Positions 33,620 to 53,138 of a stretch of DNA of 64,000 bases are shown in pieces. The stretch comes from a virus (taxonomy: Duplodnaviria; Caudoviricetes). Location of the stretch: positions 32,001-96,000 of IMG/VR virus record IMGVR_UViG_3300020048_003360; one strand, given 5' to 3'. The first letter of the stretch is position 1. Each line of letters starts with the position of its first letter. The position numbers and the translations under genes are program-made. Under the pieces are notes generated by a model. That model did not search any database, had not been told where the DNA came from, and worked only from the letters and a program-made list of their open reading frames with translations.

Positions 33620-35170
33620 TTATAGTGGCGTGCCGATATTCACACTGGTGTACGAGAGTGCTTTATTTTCCATTAGAGTCCGTTTTTGCTCGTGGTATTG
33701 AAGGTGCTTCGGTATATCGGTGCACACGAAATAGAGAAAGCGTGGTGTACTACCATCCTTTAATGGACGCAGTCTACCTAGAGACTGTAGATTTGCCTGA
33801 ATAGAGGATACCGCAATCGTTAAAATCACAGTACTGAGTCCTGCAATATCCACTGCAGTACCAGCTGATCCCAATGTAGAAACAGATATATCGGACGTCA
33901 TCAGACTATCAAAATCGTCCTCGGCAGTATATTTGTTTATACTCAGATTAAAATACTTTCCTCCAGAATGTGAAGAGAGTTTATCTCTTAAGTACTTTAC
34001 TACTAATTCACACATCTCAATTGAAATACAGAATATTAAGCATTTCTGATTTGGTTTATAGTACTGTAGATAAGATCCTTTAAAAGTTTCCCATATCAAA
34101 TTGAAGTAATTACTAGTTACTACTTTATCACGTAGTATTGATTGCTCAAACATATGGTGACTATAAGTAGAACTTACTCTATCTAAATGCTTTATTTTAA
34201 ATGGATCTTTAAATCTATAAAAAATAGCTGTTGATGATACATATCTCCTATAAGCCTCACCAGCATACTGTAGATGTACTGGATATACTACTCCATACAT
34301 TTTAGATATAAAAGGATCATCAGACTTTAAAGTAGCGGATAGTGAAATACTACGATAGACATTAGTGTTTAATAGGATTTTAAATGCAGCATGAAACTCC
34401 TGATGAGCCTCATCAATAAGTAGAATACCCACACCTAATAACTTACAAAAGTCTTCAGGTATGCATGCGTATCCTATTGCTGTAGTTTCATATTGAAACT
34501 TCTCATATAGTTTAATCCAATTTGATAGAGTCTTCATACTGACTAAAATTATCTTAGCAGTTAATTCTCCATTTTCAGCTGCTGATAATAAAGTCAATAA
34601 CTGACTAGATCCACGTATTACCAAAACATCATCTGGATCTATATCGTATTTTTCATTAATCTCAATTTCCCATTTTTCTAAATACATGGGTTTTACTACA
34701 ATTAATGTTCTATGTCTGATTGTGGACATTGCCTTTAAAGCGCAAATCCCCTTACCCATACCTGTCTGTAGGTTTAAAAACTTAGCAACAGGTGGACCTA
34801 CAGAAGTAAGATATTCCACTATTGGTATCTGATAGTCCCTAAGAACCCATTCGGGTTTCATTTTCAATTCTACCTGAACTGGCATTGGAAATGGAATTGA
34901 ATCATGACCAACTAAGTCATCTACTAATCCAAACCCTTTAATAAAACAAATGAATTCGGATAATTGGTTAATATGAAAACGATATTCACTACGATCCATA
35001 GTAGATGTCGCAAATACTCTTACGGGCATTTTACTATAGTTCCCACGATCTTTTACCCAATTATAATGAATAAGAGTACTCGCAAACTTATTTATAGCTT
35101 CTCTAGCCCTAGGAGTAATTTTTGTTATTTTAAAAAAGTGAGATGCTGTAGTAATCAATAGTTCTGCCAT
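33620..35170 (-). CDS. Superfamily-2 helicase (phiKZ gp75-like)
   Basis: Walker A LQTGMGKG, DEAH, SAT motif III, QSLGRLR motif VI. Confidence 0.9.
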   Translation of the reverse strand: MAELLITTASHFFKITKITPRAREAINKFASTLIHYNWVKDRGNYSKMPVRVFATSTMDRSEYRFHINQLSEFICFIKGFGLVDDLVGHDSIPFPMPVQVELKMKPEWVLRDYQIPIVEYLTSVGPPVAKFLNLQTGMGKGICALKAMSTIRHRTLIVVKPMYLEKWEIEINEKYDIDPDDVLVIRGSSQLLTLLSAAENGELTAKIILVSMKTLSNWIKLYEKFQYETTAIGYACIPEDFCKLLGVGILLIDEAHQEFHAAFKILLNTNVYRSISLSATLKSDDPFISKMYGVVYPVHLQYAGEAYRRYVSSTAIFYRFKDPFKIKHLDRVSSTYSHHMFEQSILRDKVVTSNYFNLIWETFKGSYLQYYKPNQKCLIFCISIEMCELVVKYLRDKLSSHSGGKYFNLSINKYTAEDDFDSLMTSDISVSTLGSAGTAVDIAGLSTVILTIAVSSIQANLQSLGRLRPLKDGSTPRFLYFVCTDIPKHLQYHEQKRTLMENKALSYTSVNIGTPL

Positions 35171-35252
35171 TATGTTTCCTTAAATATCAAATTACAGACC
35201 CTTAGAGGGGTCCTAAAGAGCCTGTAAGATTCTACCTACACCTTTACTACGG

Positions 35253-35325
35253 GTGATATACTAACAATTTATCGAGTGGATGGTCTGGTCTGTTAGTAAT
35301 TAAGTAAGAGTTTGGACTAGTGATA
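35253..35325 (-). repeat. Orphan copy of the beta' 3' end (copy B)
   Basis: 68/73 nt identical to 36279-36351; translates ITSPNSYLITNRPDHPLDKLLVYHP-stop. Confidence 0.9.
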
Positions 35326-35332
35326 CATCTAT

Positions 35333-36136
35333 TTAGTCTACCCAAACATAATCGTCATACTGTTCCTCAGGATTAAAAATTCTACTCAGTGCTATCTCTT
35401 TAGATAGTCCGGACTCAATAGAATACTCATTCACCGAATTATAAATAGTGTTTTTTATTATACACTGGCGTTCATACATGTCTTTTTTATAGTAATACAT
35501 AGGAAACTTTGGATCACGTAATCTTCTCCGTAATGTAGGTGATGGAATTTTTGTAGCACTAGTAGAAGCTAATAGCGACTCATATTCGACACCATCTATT
35601 ATAATCCTCACTTGCCTATCTAACCTACTCTGAATGAGTTTTGCCAGTGCTTCAGGATTATTAGCTAAGTATTTCTTTATACCGGCACTAACTCTTAATC
35701 CGGCAGTAGGATTATTCTTATAATAGTTTTTTATTGTCATACTACGAGCAAGAGATTTGGTAGAATTACTTAATGTTTTATTAGCTTTTTCTGCTGGATA
35801 TAGATTGTAGACATATGGTTCTCCAAAATACCTATTTAGTAATACGGTTTCAGCATCAAAAGCTCGTCCTTTATTAATAGTCAATGCAAAATAGAAAATC
35901 ACATGTGGATCTTTTTTATAATCTTCTTGCAGTAATCTATTTGTGTGACTACCGACTCTTAAAAACCATTTGTGTTTTTCAAATCTTTTTTTAAGATCAT
36001 TTGAATGACCAATATAGACTTTATTACTACTATGTCGGATTAGATATACTCCACTTTTTTTATCTAAATCCGACATACTTAAAAACATACCGACTGGACT
36101 AAAACTAAATTCTAAAAATATATCTATATCATGCAT
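35333..36136 (-). mobile_element. Free-standing GIY-YIG homing endonuclease #1
   Basis: GVY-x9-YIG, conserved Arg/His, Glu (DAET) and Asn (VYN); C-terminal HTH-like repeats. Confidence 0.85.
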
Positions 36137-36272
36137 ATACTACCTCATTAAATTGAATATTAGCGATCGTCGTAGGCCATGTAGACGCAGGCCACTATAT
36201 ATCATTCATAATAATGAGGCAATATATTTTATTTATTATTAGAAAATTACTTCATAATAGTAAAATATAACC

Positions 36273-38243
36273 TCATGAGTGATATACTAACAGCCTATCC
36301 AATGGATGGTCTGGTCTGTTAGTAATTAAGTAAGAGTTTGGACTAGTGATAACACGGCGGTGGGATTCAAATGCCATAGCGGCGGACAAGGATCGATTTA
36401 CCATAGTTACTTTCATTACTCCTAATTCGTTTTTAGTAAATGGTTTAGGTAAACCATAATTGTTTTCACTATCATTAATGACCATACTGGCGTAAAACAC
36501 TACATCCAATACAGCTAAATTAACATTTAGTTTATCATTAACAAGATCAAACAACTCTACTAAAGCACTATTAGCGGTCGTTAGTTTATTACGTTTCTGT
36601 AACTTCCCTACTGATGATTCTAACATTTTCGCAATGTCTGCCGAATGATCTCCCATTGAGAAATGTTTCAGTGGTAACGTAAGAATCTCTTTAGAAAAAT
36701 TCCAGTCCTTCATGTCGATTACATAATTTCCCCGTTCATTTACTACCCATCCTTTCACTTTAATATATTCTAATAAATCAGTAGTCATGCTAGCTAGTCG
36801 TTGATTTAAACTAACTACAAAACTCTCAATATGTCCATTCACCATAATACCTATTTCAGATAATTCTGAAATTCTAGTAATATTTAAATCGTTAACGTTA
36901 GCTATTTCCATAACGTCAGTAATATTACTAGCTTCATCTGCAGCTACTATTAAAAAGACTTGTTTTTGTTTCAGAGTTTCTGTTAGGAGATAAGATGATT
37001 TATCTGTCGATACTTTTAAAAACTTTGCAGCTTTATCACTTAACGTAATACCAACTACTACTGAACTCCAGTCTAAATGCTTTACTGATAAAACATTTTG
37101 ACTAGATTTTTGAGCCAGTGATGTACAGCAAATTTGACCAAGATTTGTCCTATCTGGTATTGAATAGGATAATTCACCAAAACAAGTACTACAGACACCA
37201 TAAGGATCGGGATGCTGACAATGTATGGCCATACGTAATTTTATTGTATGTCCAATTAAATGGGTGTCAGTTTTCTTAATTATCTTAAGTACCCCATCTG
37301 TATCTAAATAGTATTTACCAATTAATTGTGATAAATCTCCTTTACGCTTTAGTGTTCCGTTTTCATAAAGTGAATCACGCACATGCCATGTTAAGTATTC
37401 TTTACTACCACAATCTCCCATATGTAGGTTTTGAACTACTTGAGACATTAACTGTAGTCGTCTAGAAAAATATTCAGCTTGTTGAAGAGGGGTCTTGCTG
37501 AACATTAAGCTCTTAGCAGCTGATCGGGATTCTATAAAGGAACTATAGAAGGTACGCAGTCCAGATACATATCCAGTAGTGATTGGAATCGGAAATAATA
37601 CGCTATCTGTATCTGTAATAAAACCTCTAGCAGAAACACATTGTAGAGTCTGATCCATACTAACTAAATTACCACGAATTGCAATAGCAATTGGATTATT
37701 GGCTAGCTCACTATCATTAAGTAAACTATTCCTAACAATACTATATGTTTTATCTATTGAACTTTGTGTTGGCTCAATAGTATCATTAGCCTCTTTTATT
37801 TTTGGATAGTTCATTACATTAATGAAATCCGTTATATCGAGCGATGTAGTATGTCCCTCACATACTACGGTTAATTTATTATAGATTTCATTAGTAATTT
37901 CATATACACGTCTAGCTAACGAATCTCTAAATTCAAGTTCATTACTATACTCAGATACGTATGTATCATAAACTGCCCACATACATACTCCTAAAAGCGA
38001 TAGGTGTGTATTACTACCCAATCTACCGTTTCCAATTATAGTAGAAACATGATGTTTTGATAATAATGGAGTTCTTGGATATGTCCTATGAAAATCCCAT
38101 GCAAATGATGAGTATTGTGTTTCTCTTGCATTTGTTTCTATCTCAATACCATCATCAAATAGTAAAGTAAACGGACCTGTAAGCGTGTCAAATAGTGTTT
38201 CTGTACTAAAACACAATAATGATCTAGCTAAAATTGTACGCAT
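36273..38243 (-). CDS. rpoC: Non-virion RNAP beta' C-terminal subunit (phiKZ gp74-like)
   Basis: SRRLQL, DCGS, HCQHPDPYGVCSTCFG, QNVLSVKH; 656 aa. Confidence 0.9.
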   Translation of the reverse strand: MRTILARSLLCFSTETLFDTLTGPFTLLFDDGIEIETNARETQYSSFAWDFHRTYPRTPLLSKHHVSTIIGNGRLGSNTHLSLLGVCMWAVYDTYVSEYSNELEFRDSLARRVYEITNEIYNKLTVVCEGHTTSLDITDFINVMNYPKIKEANDTIEPTQSSIDKTYSIVRNSLLNDSELANNPIAIAIRGNLVSMDQTLQCVSARGFITDTDSVLFPIPITTGYVSGLRTFYSSFIESRSAAKSLMFSKTPLQQAEYFSRRLQLMSQVVQNLHMGDCGSKEYLTWHVRDSLYENGTLKRKGDLSQLIGKYYLDTDGVLKIIKKTDTHLIGHTIKLRMAIHCQHPDPYGVCSTCFGELSYSIPDRTNLGQICCTSLAQKSSQNVLSVKHLDWSSVVVGITLSDKAAKFLKVSTDKSSYLLTETLKQKQVFLIVAADEASNITDVMEIANVNDLNITRISELSEIGIMVNGHIESFVVSLNQRLASMTTDLLEYIKVKGWVVNERGNYVIDMKDWNFSKEILTLPLKHFSMGDHSADIAKMLESSVGKLQKRNKLTTANSALVELFDLVNDKLNVNLAVLDVVFYASMVINDSENNYGLPKPFTKNELGVMKVTMVNRSLSAAMAFESHRRVITSPNSYLITNRPDHPLDRLLVYHS

Positions 38244-38348: not shown

Positions 38349-40502
38349 TTACCAACTAGGAATATAGTTTTTGTAAATAAAGCTCCAGCCACTAGTACAT
38401 GCCATGTGCTTTACCAATACCAATGGTTTACTATGACCTATTGGATTTATATTACGATCTACATTTCTATCTATGTTAGTAGGAATATTAGCATTCAATA
38501 TTGACTCCAATACCATTTTGTGAGTAATTAATGAATTATTGCGATCTAAAATATCAGCAGTTATATCAGAACCACAATAACTAGCATAAATTCTAGTTTC
38601 AGATTCACCTAACGCCCTGATGGCTTGATTCCTACTGGGTTGTGAAAACTTATCACTATTTGTTACTTGTGATAAGACTCCAAAATGTTGTAACTTACCA
38701 GACGATACAGCTGTCCAATCATCTGCTGTTTTTTCCAACAAGATCATATAGACACTACCGATTCTAGTAGACTCTGTAGTAGTTACCCTTACTCCGGTAG
38801 CTCCCACATAACTAACTGGACCATATGTGGGTCTAAAATGTCTTTCTATTTCTTCTACTACCTCTTTTGGTTCTGGGGCGTTGCTGGGTGGCATATACAG
38901 ATAAATACCATTACGGACTACCTCAGATAGGTGTCTACTGCGTTTATCCTTATACTCCTTTTTAGTACGATTATCTACATACTCTCCATCTGTAAGTATC
39001 ACATACATTTTTGGAGATAGGATTTTATAATAAGCCATCAGATAATCCCATGCCCTATCTAATAACTCACTACCCGTATTTTCTAATCCCAATAACTTTC
39101 TACTAACATCATCCTCGTTTTTATCAATGTGTAGTATTTTACAGATTACTTTTACAACATCCCTAGACGCTGAGTTAAAATACTGCTCATAGAGTCTACC
39201 GATATTCATTCGACCAACAGTTGATAAAGCATCCATTACTATATCTGCTCTATTACCATCGGTATCTACTGGCATTTCATGTGGTTCTGCTATTTTACAA
39301 ATAACGCCTTTCCCCCCATGAAAATCTGATATTTTAAAACCTATAGTGGGAGTAGTTTCGTACTCTATTACAAACTCCACCCTATAGTCATCCAGTGGTG
39401 TATTATGGTAAAGTTTAATGATTTGTTGTGGATCGGTATCCATAACTGCCATTGCTTCCACCAGCATTCTATGTAACTCTGGCGTTAATCTAAGATTATC
39501 ACCACGTTGTTTCTTTAACCTGTGATATTCATCAATTAACTCCTTATAGAAACGATATCTAGCTTCATTATACTTATCAGCCTGATCATCCATGGTTGGA
39601 GTATCGGCTAATTTACTAGCGGTATTTTTAGAATCATGATGTATTTTAATGTCCACCACTACACCACCAGCACCACCTGCGTATGTTAATTTATCAAAAA
39701 TAAAATCAGGCTCCATTAAATCCGATATACTTTGTTCCACAACAGCTAATTCTTTATTATAATTTCGTAAACACATTAGAATACCATCACTACGTATTCT
39801 ATCTCCAATATCTGGAAATGGTTTATAATTATCTGCATCGCCGTACAGATTTAATGGAAATCGTTTACTACCCCACTCCACACTCCTGTTTTCATATGTC
39901 TTAAAACTAAATTTCTTTAAGACGTCACTACTGATCATTACGCCATCTTCAGATACAGATGGATGTGACATATATGCTACATTACACTCTATACCGTACT
40001 TATAACCACCATTACTGGTTATCGATGGTGAATTCATTAAGATAGTGCCAGCAGCCATAAAGGCACCTACACGTACTTCAGCTAACGATGGAGTTGGTTT
40101 ATACTCAAAACCAAAATACTGGTGATAGGAGCAGTATTTTGGTATACTCAACATACCTATTTCTTTAGTGTTAATATCCTCATATAGCACTACTGTTTGT
40201 GGGTTAAACTTAATTGTCTCCCTACCGACCCTATATGGGTAACGTTCAATTATTTTTATTATTTCAACTCCATTATTACCATTTGGATCACCTGGTATTT
40301 TTATAGAAAATGTGTATTTACCATACTCCCTTTCCATTCCAGTTTGAATAAAACGTTCAGTAGCCCCGCTCACCACTAAACTCTGACTAATATGTGATGA
40401 TCCCATTTGCTGACGAGGTGAGCTATCGTGCGCTGCAAATGGATTTAAACTTACAACACCTAATAATTCTCTATGGAGTTCATTAGGGTTTTTCATACTC
40501 AT
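38349..40502 (-). CDS. rpoB: Non-virion RNAP beta subunit C-half (phiKZ gp71-73-like, uninterrupted)
   Basis: RQQMGSSH, SEDG, KISDFHGGKGV, GRMNIG, GESE motifs; 717 aa. Confidence 0.9.
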   Translation of the reverse strand: MSMKNPNELHRELLGVVSLNPFAAHDSSPRQQMGSSHISQSLVVSGATERFIQTGMEREYGKYTFSIKIPGDPNGNNGVEIIKIIERYPYRVGRETIKFNPQTVVLYEDINTKEIGMLSIPKYCSYHQYFGFEYKPTPSLAEVRVGAFMAAGTILMNSPSITSNGGYKYGIECNVAYMSHPSVSEDGVMISSDVLKKFSFKTYENRSVEWGSKRFPLNLYGDADNYKPFPDIGDRIRSDGILMCLRNYNKELAVVEQSISDLMEPDFIFDKLTYAGGAGGVVVDIKIHHDSKNTASKLADTPTMDDQADKYNEARYRFYKELIDEYHRLKKQRGDNLRLTPELHRMLVEAMAVMDTDPQQIIKLYHNTPLDDYRVEFVIEYETTPTIGFKISDFHGGKGVICKIAEPHEMPVDTDGNRADIVMDALSTVGRMNIGRLYEQYFNSASRDVVKVICKILHIDKNEDDVSRKLLGLENTGSELLDRAWDYLMAYYKILSPKMYVILTDGEYVDNRTKKEYKDKRSRHLSEVVRNGIYLYMPPSNAPEPKEVVEEIERHFRPTYGPVSYVGATGVRVTTTESTRIGSVYMILLEKTADDWTAVSSGKLQHFGVLSQVTNSDKFSQPSRNQAIRALGESETRIYASYCGSDITADILDRNNSLITHKMVLESILNANIPTNIDRNVDRNINPIGHSKPLVLVKHMACTSGWSFIYKNYIPSW

Positions 40503-47220: not shown

Positions 47221-48060
47221 TTAAAGAATATCTAACATGATTTGTCGAGCATATGGATTCAATAAAGTTTCTAAACCATATCTCACTTTATCTCTAGTAG
47301 TCACAGAACTCCAGTTGTATTTCTTAGCTACCTCCAATATAGACATACGTAGTTTACGATCATGGGGTCTGAATAGAGTCTCATCACCAAAAACAGTCAA
47401 GAAACATTTCATAAAAGGAATTTGATTTAACTCACTACCATTATGTAATTTGGTATACCATTGACTTTTTCCTTTCACAAAACCCGTATGACTTTCTAAC
47501 AATGATAGTTTACTAAACTCATGTGCTGATAATAAATCAATAGCAAAATGCGTTAGTATTAAAGCACTGTTTGAGCCATTAGGGTTCTTTAGAAATAACT
47601 CAAATCCTTTTATATCTAGATCTGGATTCTTAAGAAGAAGTTTCATTACCTGTGCCTGTAGGGCGCTAAACTCCTTTTGCTTTTCAGTGTTATCCATACG
47701 CGCGACACTGCGTTTAAACTCCCGTTCAATACCATTATAGTTAGAGTAGTAAAACACTACTTTAACATTACCATTTCTAGATGTATTCTCTTCCACAAAT
47801 GTTCTAATAAACGACATCTCCTCAGCTAATGTAGCTGCTAACTCGATAATACTGACTTTACCCGCATTGTTTCTCTCTAATGAGCCCAACATATTTCGGA
47901 AAAGAGTACGGACGTTTACAAGCAACGAACTGTATTTTAAGATAGGCACTTCTGAGGATGGATGATCTGGATGGACACCATAGGCTCCCTCAATCGCAAG
48001 GCTTGTAGCGATAGACAACGGCAGCTGTCCAACTGCACGTTGTGATAAAAGATCTATCAT
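47221..48060 (-). CDS. Conserved phiKZ-like protein (possible 5'-nuclease/PIN-like fold)
   Basis: 279 aa; position next to SbcD; fold guess is weak. Confidence 0.45.
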   Translation of the reverse strand: MIDLLSQRAVGQLPLSIATSLAIEGAYGVHPDHPSSEVPILKYSSLLVNVRTLFRNMLGSLERNNAGKVSIIELAATLAEEMSFIRTFVEENTSRNGNVKVVFYYSNYNGIEREFKRSVARMDNTEKQKEFSALQAQVMKLLLKNPDLDIKGFELFLKNPNGSNSALILTHFAIDLLSAHEFSKLSLLESHTGFVKGKSQWYTKLHNGSELNQIPFMKCFLTVFGDETLFRPHDRKLRMSILEVAKKYNWSSVTTRDKVRYGLETLLNPYARQIMLDIL

Positions 48061-48101
48061 TTAAATTCCTTTAAATATTAAATTACAGACTCTCCAAGGG
48101 A

Positions 48102-49052
48102 TCACATATGCTTTCTAGCTAAATATGCTTTCCTAGCTGAAGACATATTAGCTCTAGCTTCAGCAGACCTAGGCTTACTCATTTTTGCGATAGCTTCAGG
48201 AGTATGTTTTCTACCAATAGTTGCTAAAGACATTTTTGCGATAGCTTCTGGAGAATGTTTTCTACCCATATGCACAGCACGCATACGTGCTTTAGCTTCT
48301 GGAGAGTTGTGATAAGCCTTCAGTTTAGCGATAGTTTCAGGAGAAAGTTTTTTACCAGTATTTGCTAACGATAATTTAGCTCTATGCTCAGGAGAAATTA
48401 TTTTACCCGTATTTACCTCACTCATACGTGCTCTATGTTCAGGAGTATTGCGATAAGCTTTCATTTTTGCGATAGTTTCGGGAGAACGTTTTTTACCAGT
48501 ATTTGCTAGTGATAGTTTTTCACGTGTTTCAGCAGACTTAGGTTTACCAGTGCGTGACTCGCTCATACGTGCCTTAGCTTCTGGAGTATTTTGATAAGCC
48601 TTCATACGCGCTTTAGCTTCTGGAGTATGTTTTCTACCAAGACTTGCTAAAGACATTTTTGCGATAGTTTCAGGAGTGCGTTTAATTCCCTGTTGCGAGT
48701 ATGCACTAGGAGCTAGATTATAAATAAAAGACTCACCGAAATACTCATCTAGTAAACTTTGTTCAACACTATGCGCTGTTTCTCTAGTGTCTACAGGCCT
48801 AACATAGTAGATTACAGTTGGGTCATTATTATAGTCCAATTGTAACGATTTGCTACGATGCATATTCCTAGAGAGGCAGTGCCTGTGGTCTTTAATTCTT
48901 TGTCTTAAATCATTAGTACTACCAATATAAAATTTACCAGTAGACACATGTTTGATCAGATAGCATCCAGGTCCATTTAGTAAGTGTCTATATTCTTTAT
49001 TACTCAATAGTGCAATTGGTACAAATCCAGTAATTATGTCATTATCTATCAT
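48102..49052 (-). mobile_element. Free-standing GIY-YIG homing endonuclease #2 with ~12 NUMOD3-type repeats
   Basis: GCY-x10-YIG, R/H, Glu (SVEQ), Asn (IYN); repeats such as RKHTPEAKARMS. Confidence 0.9.
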
Positions 49053-51697: not shown

Positions 51698-52330
51698 TCA
51701 TAAACTATCACCCCAAATACTGGTTGGGTCTTCGCCACCATACTTTATTAAATTGGCAACTACTTCCCAAGTTTTCAATATACTAGTTTGCTCATCATGA
51801 GATAATTCCCTATCACCCTCATGTAGAGTATCCAAGTAAATGCTAACTTTATCATTACCTTCTTCATCGGCAACAAAAATACCATTCATAACTCTACGGT
51901 AATCATAGTGGTTCTCACCTACCCCACCAGGTTCCATATCCACATACGTATCACTATAGCCATCACATCTTTGTTGATGATAAATTTCTCGAACATCAGG
52001 TTGTGCCATAATAAAACGCTGCATTATTGGCTGTGCATTCTGTAACTTATCTAGCTCAGAAATAAAGTGAATATCAGTTCTACTGAATAGATTATTCATT
52101 TTATTTAATGCAGCTCTAGCAAGTTGCATAGCCTGAGAACCCGTAAAGCTATTCAGCATTTCTCTAGAGTTTGCAAAGAATTGCTGTCCAGCTTCAGTTA
52201 GAGTATTGCTAAGATTAGCTACACTACTAACACTGTTTTCGAGATAATTTATGGTACCAGGATGTCGTTCAGCCCCATACACAAGAGCTCTAAATGCCAT
52301 ATCATCACCATAACCTACCTGTATAGCCAT
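51698..52330 (-). CDS. Conserved phiKZ-like hypothetical protein
   Basis: 210 aa; GAGGA RBS supplied by the shared cassette module. Confidence 0.7.
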   Translation of the reverse strand: MAIQVGYGDDMAFRALVYGAERHPGTINYLENSVSSVANLSNTLTEAGQQFFANSREMLNSFTGSQAMQLARAALNKMNNLFSRTDIHFISELDKLQNAQPIMQRFIMAQPDVREIYHQQRCDGYSDTYVDMEPGGVGENHYDYRRVMNGIFVADEEGNDKVSIYLDTLHEGDRELSHDEQTSILKTWEVVANLIKYGGEDPTSIWGDSL

Positions 52331-52430
52331 TATTTTTCCTCAAATATTAAATTACAGACCCTCCAAGGGGTCTTAAAGGGTCTGTAATCTCGACTACTCA
52401 CACTTCTATTAACGAAACGCTAATAACGCA

Positions 52431-53138
52431 TTATGGTGCTTCTAAGCCATCATTTGCTTTTTTATTAGCAAAATATGTTTTCCTAGATAAAGACATTTTA
52501 GCTCTAGCTTCGGCAGAAATTGTTTTACCACGGTGTATTGAAGATAGTTTAGCCCTACCTTCGGCAGACATTGTTTTACCATTAGCTACTAAGGCAGTCT
52601 GTATTAAAGACATTTTAGCTTTTGATTTATCAGTGTGTTTTCTACCGGTAGATTTTAAAGACATCTTAACACGTGCTTCGTCGGTGTGTTTTCGACCGGT
52701 GTGCAGCTTACTCATCCGCTCCTTAGACTCAGGTGTATTTACAAAGATCTTTATATTGGCCTTTGTAACGTCATCAAGTTTAACTCCTTTAGCTGATTTA
52801 GCACTAGGTGATTTATTATAAATAAAAGACTCACCGAAATACTTATCTAGTAAGTCCTGCTTAATACTAAACGCCTCTTCTCTAGTATTGGTAGGTTTAC
52901 AATAGCAAATTATCCGTGGATCATCATTATAGTGATGCTGTAGTAATCGACATTTATGTATATTAGTCCTAAGAAAGAAACCATTAGTCGTAATTCTTTT
53001 TCTTAGAATATTACCAATGCCAATATAATAACCGCCACTACCCAGATGTTTAACCAAATAACAACCATAACCACTTAAGTCGTCATCACTAACCTCGTTA
53101 AATAAAGTGAATCCAGTAGTTACCTCATTATCAATCAT
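52431..53138 (-). mobile_element. Free-standing GIY-YIG endonuclease #3, NUMOD3 repeats, probably inactive
   Basis: GCY-x10-YIG; paralog of #2 (MIDNEVTTGF vs MIDNDIITGF); catalytic Glu position is Lys. Confidence 0.8.

What the first reader, a model, noticed from the sequence alone, without database searches (positions are those of the whole stretch)
35168..36351. GIY-YIG cassette bracketed by two recoded alleles of the RNAP beta' gene end
Seen: 35253-35325 repeats 36279-36351 (68/73 nt, 49 nt perfect), 1026 bp apart, with the endonuclease between them. The in-gene copy encodes ...HPLDRLLVYHS*; the orphan copy encodes ...HPLDKLLVYHP**. The five differences cluster in three codons and are synonymous or conservative (TTG/CTC Leu, AGG/AAA Arg/Lys, CTG/TTG Leu), so both look like selected coding alleles. 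Known: T4 seg/mob endonucleases home without introns, and integrative elements restore tRNA 3' ends. Inference: the cassette entered an essential gene near its 3' end, supplied a replacement (possibly cleavage-resistant) C-terminus and left the original end stranded. This is the geometry of single-crossover integration of a small circle, and one recombination event between the copies would excise it cleanly. It is not an intron: there is no group I core, and only ~7 nt separate the endonuclease stop from copy B.
Basis: partly seen in the sequence, partly recalled or inferred. Interest (0 to 1): 0.82.

Follow-up and report, generated by a model that had tools for sequence, protein, structure and literature searches.

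The report
Homing endonuclease flanked by duplicated gene end
A selfish endonuclease gene sits just after an essential RNA polymerase gene of a giant phage, bracketed by two near-identical copies of that gene's last 24 codons; this layout is known from fungal mitochondria, and I found no phage example in the literature I searched.

Summary
A 73-nt direct repeat (68/73 identical, 49 nt perfect, 1026 nt apart) brackets a free-standing GIY-YIG endonuclease gene. That gene lies at the 3' end of the phiKZ gp74-like RNA polymerase beta' gene of an uncultured 208-kb phage.

- **Not an assembly error.** Two independent k141 assemblies are identical across the locus. Unitig graphs of three runs break exactly at the 49-nt repeat, with equal depth on the cassette and both flanks.
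- **It is an insertion.** In most relatives (37-72% identity) the polymerase gene runs straight into the helicase gene, and none has a second copy of the gene end. The closest endonuclease homologue sits directly behind the same polymerase gene in another phage, without a duplication.
- **The differences are not random.** The five differences fall within 10 nt (P about 5e-4) and preserve the protein (P about 0.002), so both copies look like former coding alleles.

The layout matches the "mobile ORF gene hybrids" of fungal mitochondria: inserted C-terminus, endonuclease, stranded native C-terminus. The likeliest origin is endonuclease-triggered break repair with one homologous and one microhomology junction.

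Which copy is native is unresolved. Relatives favour the in-gene allele as ancestral-like. The small-circle integration idea has no support. The stranded copy lies between the endonuclease and a hairpin-plus-RBS module found only behind the genome's three GIY-YIG genes. Other first-stage notes of this scan had already flagged that module.

The parts
36273..38243 (-). Gene for the beta' C-terminal half of the non-virion RNA polymerase (phiKZ gp74 homologue, 656 aa). It is complete without any splicing.
   Evidence: translation; phrog_3015, profile positions 2-648 of 653, E 5.7e-184. PDB 7OGP_D PHIKZ074, E 3e-97, query residues 5-652.
36279..36351 (-). In-gene copy of the 73-nt repeat. It encodes (V)ITSPNSYLITNRPDHPLDRLLVYH and is followed by TCA TGA. 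This is the R-type allele; its variable patch is at 36293-36302.
36137..36272 (-). 136-nt spacer. It holds a degenerate copy of the phage's own promoter consensus (around 36200-36230). That copy lies in the 5' arm of a hairpin that pairs with the endonuclease's Shine-Dalgarno sequence.
   Evidence: MFE -32.5 kcal/mol, z -2.64; UGCCUCAUU pairs with AAUGAGGUA; consensus TATGGCAATATATTACCTATATG occurs about 15 times in the genome, with a degenerate copy at 36228.
35333..36136 (-). Free-standing GIY-YIG homing endonuclease gene (267 aa). The catalytic residues appear intact. The C-terminal DNA-binding region is shared with the orthologue P0127.
   Evidence: PF01541, E 1.2e-9; aligns with I-TevI residues 2-56, with equivalents of Y6, Y17, R27, H31 and H40 conserved. 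P0127 is 38% identical over residues 21-267.
35326..35332 (-). 7-nt junction (ATAGATG) between the endonuclease stop codon and the orphan copy. Together with the first 11 nt of the orphan it resembles the start of the 3' module of cassette 3. This may be a microhomology junction.
   Evidence: 13 of 18 matches; 65 of 2000 shuffles score as well, so the resemblance is marginal.
35253..35325 (-). Orphan copy of the 73-nt repeat. This is the K-type allele (...HPLDKLLVYH), followed by CCG TAG TAA; its variable patch is at 35267-35276. It has no plausible start codon and lies in a different frame from the endonuclease.
35166..35249 (-). 3' module: stop codons TAG TAA, a hairpin (35192-35227), a U-rich tract, then the Shine-Dalgarno sequence and ATG of the helicase gene. 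Homologous copies occur only behind the other two GIY-YIG genes, at about 52326-52412 and, as a half copy, 48071-48090.
   Evidence: blastn against the whole 208-kb genome finds only these three places; homology with copy 3 runs from 35249 to 35166. (folds)..
33620..35170 (-). Helicase-like gene (516 aa). In most relatives this gene directly follows the polymerase gene.
   Evidence: ResIII, E 3.3e-5; phrog_16. Synteny.

Best explanation
This is a free-standing GIY-YIG homing-endonuclease cassette lodged at the 3' end of the gp74-like RNA polymerase beta' gene. The insertion event left the last 24 codons of the target gene on both sides of the endonuclease gene.

The upstream copy completes the polymerase reading frame. 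The downstream copy is an untranslated relic. This is the 'mobile ORF gene hybrid' layout known from fungal mitochondria.

Inferred mechanism:
1. The endonuclease cuts endonuclease-free alleles within or near the conserved ...NRPDHPLD... coding stretch.
2. The break is repaired from an endonuclease-carrying genome.
3. On the gene side, repair uses ordinary homology.
4. On the other side, the newly copied strand was joined illegitimately, a few bases after the endonuclease stop codon, to the broken end at TATCACTAGTC. The recipient's own gene end therefore survived downstream.

The 10-nt patch of five protein-preserving differences marks two distinct coding alleles. It may include part of the enzyme's recognition site, which would keep at least one copy uncut. 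Which copy is the native one is not settled. Recombination within the 49-nt identical block would delete the cassette and restore an intact gene.
For: Shown:
- The repeat and the reading frames are as described.
- The endonuclease domain is present and its catalytic residues are conserved.
- There is no ribozyme, and the polymerase ORF covers the full family profile without splicing.
- Two independent k141 assemblies, L011 and L012, are identical to the window over 4624 nt spanning polymerase, endonuclease and helicase.
- Unitigs of runs X1, X2 and X4 break at the 49-nt repeat. Depths in X1 are 41.4 (flank), 39.4 (cassette) and 40.4 (flank).
- Eight relatives have the polymerase gene directly followed by the helicase gene: FLC9, L005, L006, L007, L010, L020/L021, and a relative whose genes are listed without DNA. 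No relative with DNA in hand has a second copy of the gene end.
- The closest full-length endonuclease homologue, P0127, shares the C-terminal DNA-binding region. It lies 120 nt behind the stop codon of the same polymerase gene in L014. This lineage is therefore tied to this gene end.
- The differences are clustered (P about 5e-4) and coding-compatible (P about 0.002).

From the literature:
- Gene hybrids made of an inserted C-terminus, a LAGLIDADG or GIY-YIG mobile ORF, and a stranded native C-terminus are documented, including Allomyces atp6 (PMC3630166).
- One-sided, illegitimate break repair at microhomologies during homing in T4 is described (reviewed in PMC2988022).
- Endonucleases that target RNA polymerase genes of phiKZ-like phages are documented (PMC11620839).

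Inferred:
- The junction TAAATAGATG|TATCACTAGTC resembles the module start TAATAGAAGTGTGAGTAGTC (marginal, p about 0.03).
Against: - No cassette-free genome closer than 72% amino-acid identity was recovered with its whole locus, so neither the empty site nor the donor has been seen.
- In the mitochondrial cases the in-gene (inserted) C-terminus is the foreign, more divergent one. Here the in-gene patch is the one that resembles relatives (X5; L010).
- The orphan sits between the endonuclease and a 3' module that otherwise follows the GIY-YIG genes directly. A simple 'cassette inserted in front of the native end' picture does not predict this. It would fit only if that module is native to the polymerase-helicase spacer.
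- Neither the cleavage site nor the enzyme's activity is known.
Confidence: 0.6

Rival explanations
1. Local copy-and-paste or segmental duplication. The ancestral order was polymerase, endonuclease, 3' module, helicase, as in the other two cassettes. The 73-nt gene end was later copied into the endonuclease/module junction. This could have happened by template switching or filler synthesis at a break, or by a tandem duplication through microhomology followed by a deletion. The patch arose afterwards, by changes in the constrained in-gene copy or by short-patch gene conversion from a co-infecting relative.
For: - The orphan lies exactly between the endonuclease stop codon and the start of the shared module.
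- 61 of 73 nt are identical, including the 49-nt block, as expected for a recent copy within the genome.
- Contig L013, from another sample, joins the endonuclease at 35819 back to the polymerase gene at 36856 through an 11-nt microhomology. That shows this kind of event happening at this locus.
- The T6 endonuclease SegB drives tandem segmental amplification through microhomology, leaving a truncated segB (PMC13096335).
- Changes in a coding copy are automatically protein-preserving.
Against: - Tandem duplication needs two steps.
- If the in-gene copy were the one that changed, the orphan's K patch would be ancestral. Yet X5 and L010 carry R-type patches.
- Five changes within 10 nt and none in the other 63 nt is not what gradual drift produces.
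Confidence: 0.2
2. Single-crossover (Campbell-type) integration of a 1026-bp circle that carried the endonuclease gene and one copy of the gene end. The element would excise again as a circle.
For: - The geometry of direct repeats flanking the insert fits.
- The k=31 unitig graph is also compatible with an empty site plus a circle.
- The L013 back-junction shows that some circular or tandem form of a neighbouring 1019-nt unit exists or was sequenced.
Against: - There is no integrase or other recombinase in or beside the cassette; its only ORF is the GIY-YIG gene.
- Homing endonuclease genes are not known to move as circles (established knowledge of the family).
- Cassette and flanks have equal depth, and the repeat unitig has 67.6, close to twice the flank depth, so there is no excess cassette.
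- k141 assemblies place it in the linear genome.
Confidence: 0.05
3. Assembly artefact, or two co-existing strain variants collapsed into one contig.
For: The window comes from a metagenome. The repeat is a branch point in the k=31 graphs.
Against: - The perfect repeat is only 49 nt, shorter than the reads.
- Megahit k141 contigs from two other samples reproduce the arrangement base for base.
- All three segments have the same depth in X1, and in X2 within noise.
Confidence: 0.02

Closest known systems
Mobile ORF (mORF) 'gene hybrids' of fungal mitochondria: Allomyces macrogynus atp6; Glomus atp6, atp9, cox2 and nad3 (PMC3630166, which cites Paquin et al. 1994)
   Same: An endonuclease ORF (GIY-YIG in Glomus atp9) is inserted near the 3' end of an essential gene. 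It is preceded by a C-terminal coding segment that completes the gene. It is followed, about 1 kb downstream, by a stranded duplicate of that C-terminus. Relatives without the ORF have a single C-terminus.
   Different: The host here is a phage genome, not mtDNA. The duplicated stretch is short (24 codons) and 93% identical, with all differences in one 10-nt patch. The endonuclease is not fused in frame; it has its own promoter-like motif and RBS. The signature of a foreign inserted C-terminus is not seen: the in-gene copy looks more like relatives than the orphan does.
Free-standing GIY-YIG homing endonucleases of T-even phages (SegB, SegF, SegG; 'intronless homing', reviewed in PMC2988022)
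   Same: An I-TevI-like N-terminal catalytic domain with a separate C-terminal DNA-binding region. The gene sits between essential genes. It is present in some related phages and absent from others. An RBS-sequestering hairpin with a promoter inside it resembles the control of I-TevI, segB and mobE.
   Different: I know of no Seg or Mob insertion flanked by a duplicate of the target gene's end, and three literature searches found none. Sequence identity to I-TevI is confined to about 55 residues. The target and the cleavage activity are untested.
PhiPA3 gp210, an intron-encoded HNH endonuclease that targets an RNA polymerase gene of phiKZ (PMC11620839)
   Same: A homing endonuclease associated with a multisubunit RNA polymerase gene of a phiKZ-like jumbo phage. 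It may act as a weapon between co-infecting phages.
   Different: gp210 is an HNH enzyme inside a group I intron in a beta-subunit gene of the virion polymerase. Here a GIY-YIG enzyme stands free behind the beta' C-terminal subunit gene of the non-virion polymerase, with a duplication in place of an intron.
SegB-driven segmental amplification in phage T6 (PMC13096335)
   Same: A GIY-YIG endonuclease locus forms repeat units through microhomology that include the neighbouring gene and a truncated endonuclease. The L013 junction has this form.
   Different: In T6 the units are tandem arrays selected by a host defence. Here the fixed structure is a single 73-nt duplication around an intact endonuclease gene.

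Membership tests
GIY-YIG homing endonuclease (I-TevI/Seg type) | N-terminal GIY-YIG catalytic domain with the conserved Tyr, Tyr, Arg, His (and Glu, Asn) residues | tested here: met
   PF01541 at E 1.2e-9. Alignment with I-TevI residues 2-56 conserves the equivalents of Y6, Y17, R27, H31 and H40. A Glu in AFDAETVLL aligns with the Glu of paralogue 2 and of P0127.
GIY-YIG homing endonuclease (I-TevI/Seg type) | Separate C-terminal DNA-binding region that sets target specificity | tested here: inconclusive
   No Pfam domain matches residues 110-267. This region does match repeated modules in many proteins. It is well conserved with P0127, which sits behind the same gene.
GIY-YIG homing endonuclease (I-TevI/Seg type) | Present in some related genomes and absent from others at one conserved locus | tested here: met
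   Absent between the polymerase and helicase genes in FLC9, L005, L006, L007, L010 and L020/L021. An orthologue is present behind the same gene in L014.
GIY-YIG homing endonuclease (I-TevI/Seg type) | Site-specific cleavage of the endonuclease-free allele, with an immune allele in the carrier genome | not testable with these tools
   This needs purified enzyme and DNA substrates. The 10-nt patch is only a candidate immunity determinant.
Mitochondrial-type mORF gene hybrid | Order: gene core, in-frame C-terminal segment, endonuclease ORF, stranded duplicate C-terminus | tested here: met
   The in-gene ORF reaches position 648 of 653 of the family profile.
Mitochondrial-type mORF gene hybrid | The inserted (in-gene) C-terminus is foreign, and the stranded copy matches close relatives | tested here: inconclusive
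   The 96% relative X5 and the 72% relative L010 carry the in-gene-like R patch, which is the opposite of this expectation. X5's copy is, however, positionally the helicase-proximal one. It is not known whether X5 carries the cassette.
Group I intron with homing endonuclease | Ribozyme core, with exons that must be spliced to give the full protein | tested here: not met
   No Rfam intron match at E up to 10 in 34900-36700. The polymerase ORF is complete upstream of the cassette.
Integrative element (site-specific, circular intermediate) | Integrase or recombinase gene, and a detectable circle or empty site | tested here: not met
   The only ORF in the cassette is the GIY-YIG gene. Circle and empty-site forms cannot be read from the k=31 unitigs available.

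The most novel reading that the evidence does not exclude
The duplication may be a maintained design rather than a scar. On this reading the cassette travels with a spare copy of its target's last 24 codons, so that break repair into the essential polymerase gene always leaves a complete gene. The orphan, an intact binding site without a cleavable context, would act as a decoy or operator for the enzyme. The 49-nt perfect block would give the element a built-in, scarless exit. Together with the hairpin/RBS module that re-supplies the downstream gene's translation start, this would define a three-part 'harmless insertion kit' for intron-less homing endonucleases in jumbo phages.
Probability: 0.12. 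Interest if true: 0.65.

Novelty: new member of a known kind. Interest (0 to 1): 0.45.

Why it matters
It shows, in a phage, how an intron-less homing endonuclease can enter the coding end of an essential gene without destroying it: a second copy of the gene end is left in place. Until now this solution has been documented in fungal mitochondria.

It also offers a compact natural substrate set for mapping a new GIY-YIG specificity against a jumbo-phage RNA polymerase gene: two alleles side by side, plus a third allele in a relative. Such enzymes are already known to decide competition between co-infecting phiKZ-like phages (PMC11620839).

The shared 3' hairpin/RBS module and the microhomology back-junction hint that endonuclease loci in these phages are hot spots for small-scale rearrangement.

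Tried and rejected
- **Near-identical DNA in named phages:** none found.
- **Exact-pattern scans of viral contigs:** the 49-nt repeat and the hairpin module both gave no hits.
- **Viral and metagenome contig scans with the polymerase protein:** only relatives at 47% identity or less.
- **90% clusters of the polymerase, endonuclease and helicase proteins:** no variants. The only other member is the truncated endonuclease on L013.
- **X5 relative:** its 398-nt contig stops at 35317. X5 shows no cover of the endonuclease or of the polymerase gene itself at depth 2.5. I therefore cannot say whether X5 has the cassette, and I draw no conclusion from the missing cover.
- **Empty-site or circle forms:** the available runs are Logan unitigs (k=31). 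These give the same graph for the integrated form and for an empty site plus a circle. No verdict is possible.
- **Flank duplications around the other two GIY-YIG genes:** none above shuffle level.
- **Spacer upstream of the endonuclease versus the L014 spacer:** no significant similarity.
- **Endonuclease remnants or a second polymerase gene end in L010, L018, L019, L020 and L022:** none.
- **A K allele travelling with the endonuclease:** K occurs in the L014 in-gene copy and in this orphan. That is only two cases, too few to use.
- **First loose regex scan for the hairpin:** uninformative. It was replaced by blastn.
- **Literature searches for a phage endonuclease flanked by a duplicated gene end:** no example found. 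This is not proof that none exists.

Full report
**What is there**

All genes in this part of the window lie on the minus strand. Reading along that strand, the order is:
- a beta-like RNA polymerase subunit gene (38349-40502; Rpb2_6 domain);
- a 656-aa gene (36273-38243);
- a 136-nt spacer;
- a 267-aa GIY-YIG gene (35333-36136);
- 7 nt;
- a 73-nt copy of the end of the 656-aa gene (35253-35325);
- two stop codons, a hairpin and a ribosome-binding site;
- a helicase-like gene (33620-35170).

The 656-aa protein covers the whole PHROG family profile (positions 2-648 of 653). It matches phiKZ gp74, the beta' C-terminal half of the non-virion RNA polymerase (PDB 7OGP chain D, E 3e-97).

The window belongs to a 208-kb IMG/VR virus record. 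Its nearest named relative is Burkholderia phage FLC9, at 52% protein identity.

**The observation**

The repeat is real and far beyond chance: 68 of 73 identical, 49 nt perfect, spacing 1026, with alignment score 121 against a shuffle maximum of 32.

The in-gene copy encodes ...ITSPNSYLITNRPDHPLDRLLVYH-S-stop. The orphan, in the same register, encodes ...DKLLVYH-P-stop-stop.

The five differences lie within 10 nt. Random placement would do this with P about 5e-4. Random substitutions would be this kind to the protein with P about 0.0014-0.0025.

No Rfam family, group I introns included, matches the region at E up to 10.

**Not an artefact**

- Two megahit k141 contigs from other samples (L011 and L012) are identical to the window over 4624 nt from the polymerase gene through the helicase gene. 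A k of 141 far exceeds the 49-nt perfect block.
- In Logan unitigs of three runs, the graph breaks exactly where a true two-copy 49-nt repeat must break it (unitig ends at 35306, 35296, 36332 and 36322).
- In X1 the depths are 41.4, 39.4 and 40.4 for flank, cassette and flank, and 67.6 for the collapsed repeat.

These runs are probably from the same campaign as the window. They show reproducibility, not independence of habitat.

**It is an insertion at a variable junction**

- In FLC9, L005, L006, L007, L010 (72% identity in the C-terminal half), L020/L021, and one relative listed without DNA, the polymerase gene is followed by the helicase gene after 17-143 nt.
- Other relatives carry unrelated inserts at the same junction: a 2.7-kb block in L022, small ORFs in L018, and a 153-aa ORF in another contig.
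- None of the relatives with DNA in hand has a second copy of the gene end.

**The endonuclease lineage is tied to this gene end**

An exhaustive profile search found one close full-length homologue, P0127: 38% identical over residues 21-267. It shares the C-terminal region that presumably binds DNA.

P0127 lies in contig L014, 120 nt behind the stop codon of the same polymerase gene. There the polymerase gene is interrupted further upstream by an HNH-containing insert. L014 has no duplication and no room for one: the next gene starts 17 nt after the endonuclease.

The N-terminal domain of the window's enzyme keeps the equivalents of I-TevI residues Y6, Y17, R27, H31 and H40. It is therefore probably active.

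**What the relatives say about direction**

A 398-nt contig from an unrelated study (run X5; 96% identical, depth 2.5) covers the helicase start, the hairpin module and the adjoining gene-end copy up to 35317.

- In the patch it reads CTG GAT AGG CTG. That is the in-gene type at four of the five variable positions.
- It ends CAA TAG.
- L010 and L022 also read D-R-L-L. L014 reads D-K-L-L.

So the orphan's K patch looks derived and the in-gene patch ancestral-like. However, the protein-preserving nature of the differences means the K patch arose in a coding copy somewhere.

I cannot tell whether X5 carries the cassette. The direction therefore stays open.

**A complication the finding did not mention**

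The 84 nt after the orphan (35166-35249) comprise stop codons, a hairpin at 35192-35227, a U-rich tract, a Shine-Dalgarno sequence and the ATG of the helicase gene.

- This stretch recurs at only two other places in the whole 208-kb genome. Both lie directly behind the other two GIY-YIG genes.
- Homology with the copy behind gene 3 starts exactly at the orphan's TAG TAA and runs to the ATG of the next gene.
- The three enzymes are only 28-40% identical, while the module is about 85% identical. The module is therefore either conserved by function or recently exchanged.
- The orphan thus lies between an endonuclease gene and a module that elsewhere follows such genes directly.
- The 18 nt at the endonuclease/orphan junction resemble the module start of copy 3 (13 of 18 matches, p about 0.03). 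This would fit a microhomology join. I treat it as a lead only.

Two first-stage notes on this genome describe the same module. I confirmed its uniqueness genome-wide.

**Most likely mechanism**

The layout equals the mitochondrial mORF gene hybrids (PMC3630166). Phage T4 is known to complete homing by one-sided, illegitimate break repair at microhomologies (reviewed in PMC2988022).

My reading is that an endonuclease-made break in the polymerase gene end was repaired from a carrier genome. Repair used homology on the gene side and an illegitimate join just past the endonuclease stop codon, which stranded one copy of the last 24 codons.

- *Shown:* the architecture, the insertion status, the tie between this endonuclease lineage and this gene end, and the non-random differences.
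- *Inferred:* the cleavage site, the repair route, any role of the patch in immunity, and which copy is native.

**Rivals**

- **Local copy-and-paste or tandem duplication.** This remains plausible (0.2). Contig L013 joins the endonuclease at 35819 back to the polymerase gene at 36856 through an 11-nt microhomology. That form is like SegB-driven amplification in T6 (PMC13096335).
- **Circle integration.** This lacks a recombinase and any positive sign (0.05).

**Expression**

The spacer carries a degenerate copy of the phage's own promoter consensus, TATGGCAATATATTACCTATATG, which occurs about 15 times genome-wide. That copy lies inside the 5' arm of a hairpin pairing with the endonuclease's Shine-Dalgarno sequence (z -2.64). 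T4 uses this arrangement to delay I-TevI, segB and mobE (PMC2988022). This is inference from sequence.

**Verdict**

This is a new, tidy example of a known kind: a homing-endonuclease insertion with a duplicated target C-terminus. I found no earlier phage example in three literature searches.

It is of moderate interest, mainly as a ready-made test case for target recognition and for how endonucleases enter essential phage genes.

Noticed in passing
window 35166-35249, 48058-48101, 52326-52412 (minus strand): A module of stop codons, a hairpin, a U-tract and an RBS leader occurs only three times in the 208-kb genome, each time directly behind a GIY-YIG gene. It ends at the ATG of the next gene. 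Copy 3 has a perfect long stem (-28.7 kcal/mol, z -5.5). Copy 2 has lost its 5' arm to the endonuclease stop codon.
   Followed up: partly
L013:4400-4668 (window 35819 joined to 36856): A k141 contig from another sample runs from the polymerase gene into the endonuclease gene, then jumps back to the polymerase gene through an 11-nt microhomology (AAATAGGTATT). This implies a 1019-nt tandem or circular unit with a truncated endonuclease (109 aa, P0126), or a chimeric read.
   Followed up: partly
window 36137-36230 (minus strand): The Shine-Dalgarno sequence of the endonuclease is paired in a hairpin. A degenerate phage promoter motif lies within the hairpin's 5' arm. This is the T4-style layout for delayed translation of homing endonucleases.
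   Followed up: partly
genome-wide, e.g. window 38284, 40566, 49107, 53179, 58104 (minus strand): A strongly conserved promoter-like consensus, TATGGCAATATATTACCTATATG, precedes about 15 genes. These include both polymerase subunit genes and GIY-YIG genes 2 and 3.
   Followed up: partly
L014:1728-3526, also L018 and L019: In three relatives the gp74-like gene is interrupted after ...KHFNMSDHS by a 462-aa HNH-type ORF followed by about 330-365 nt of non-coding sequence. The gene resumes at MLESSV... This is probably a group I intron with a homing endonuclease. I did not test it.
   Followed up: no
L022:4939-7632; L018:3358-3818: The polymerase-helicase junction is a hot spot. L022 carries a 2.7-kb block of unrelated ORFs there. 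L018 carries small ORFs, including a fragment resembling the DUF4240 gene that follows the endonuclease in L014.
   Followed up: partly
window 52431-53138 (minus strand): GIY-YIG paralogue 3 aligns with Lys where the others have the catalytic Glu (FSIKQDLL against HSVEQSLL). It matches the Pfam domain only weakly (E 0.086). It may be nuclease-dead while keeping its NUMOD3 repeats.
   Followed up: partly
window 48144-48742: GIY-YIG paralogue 2 contains four 141-nt tandem units, built from 51- and 39-nt sub-repeats. They encode six NUMOD3 motifs.
   Followed up: no
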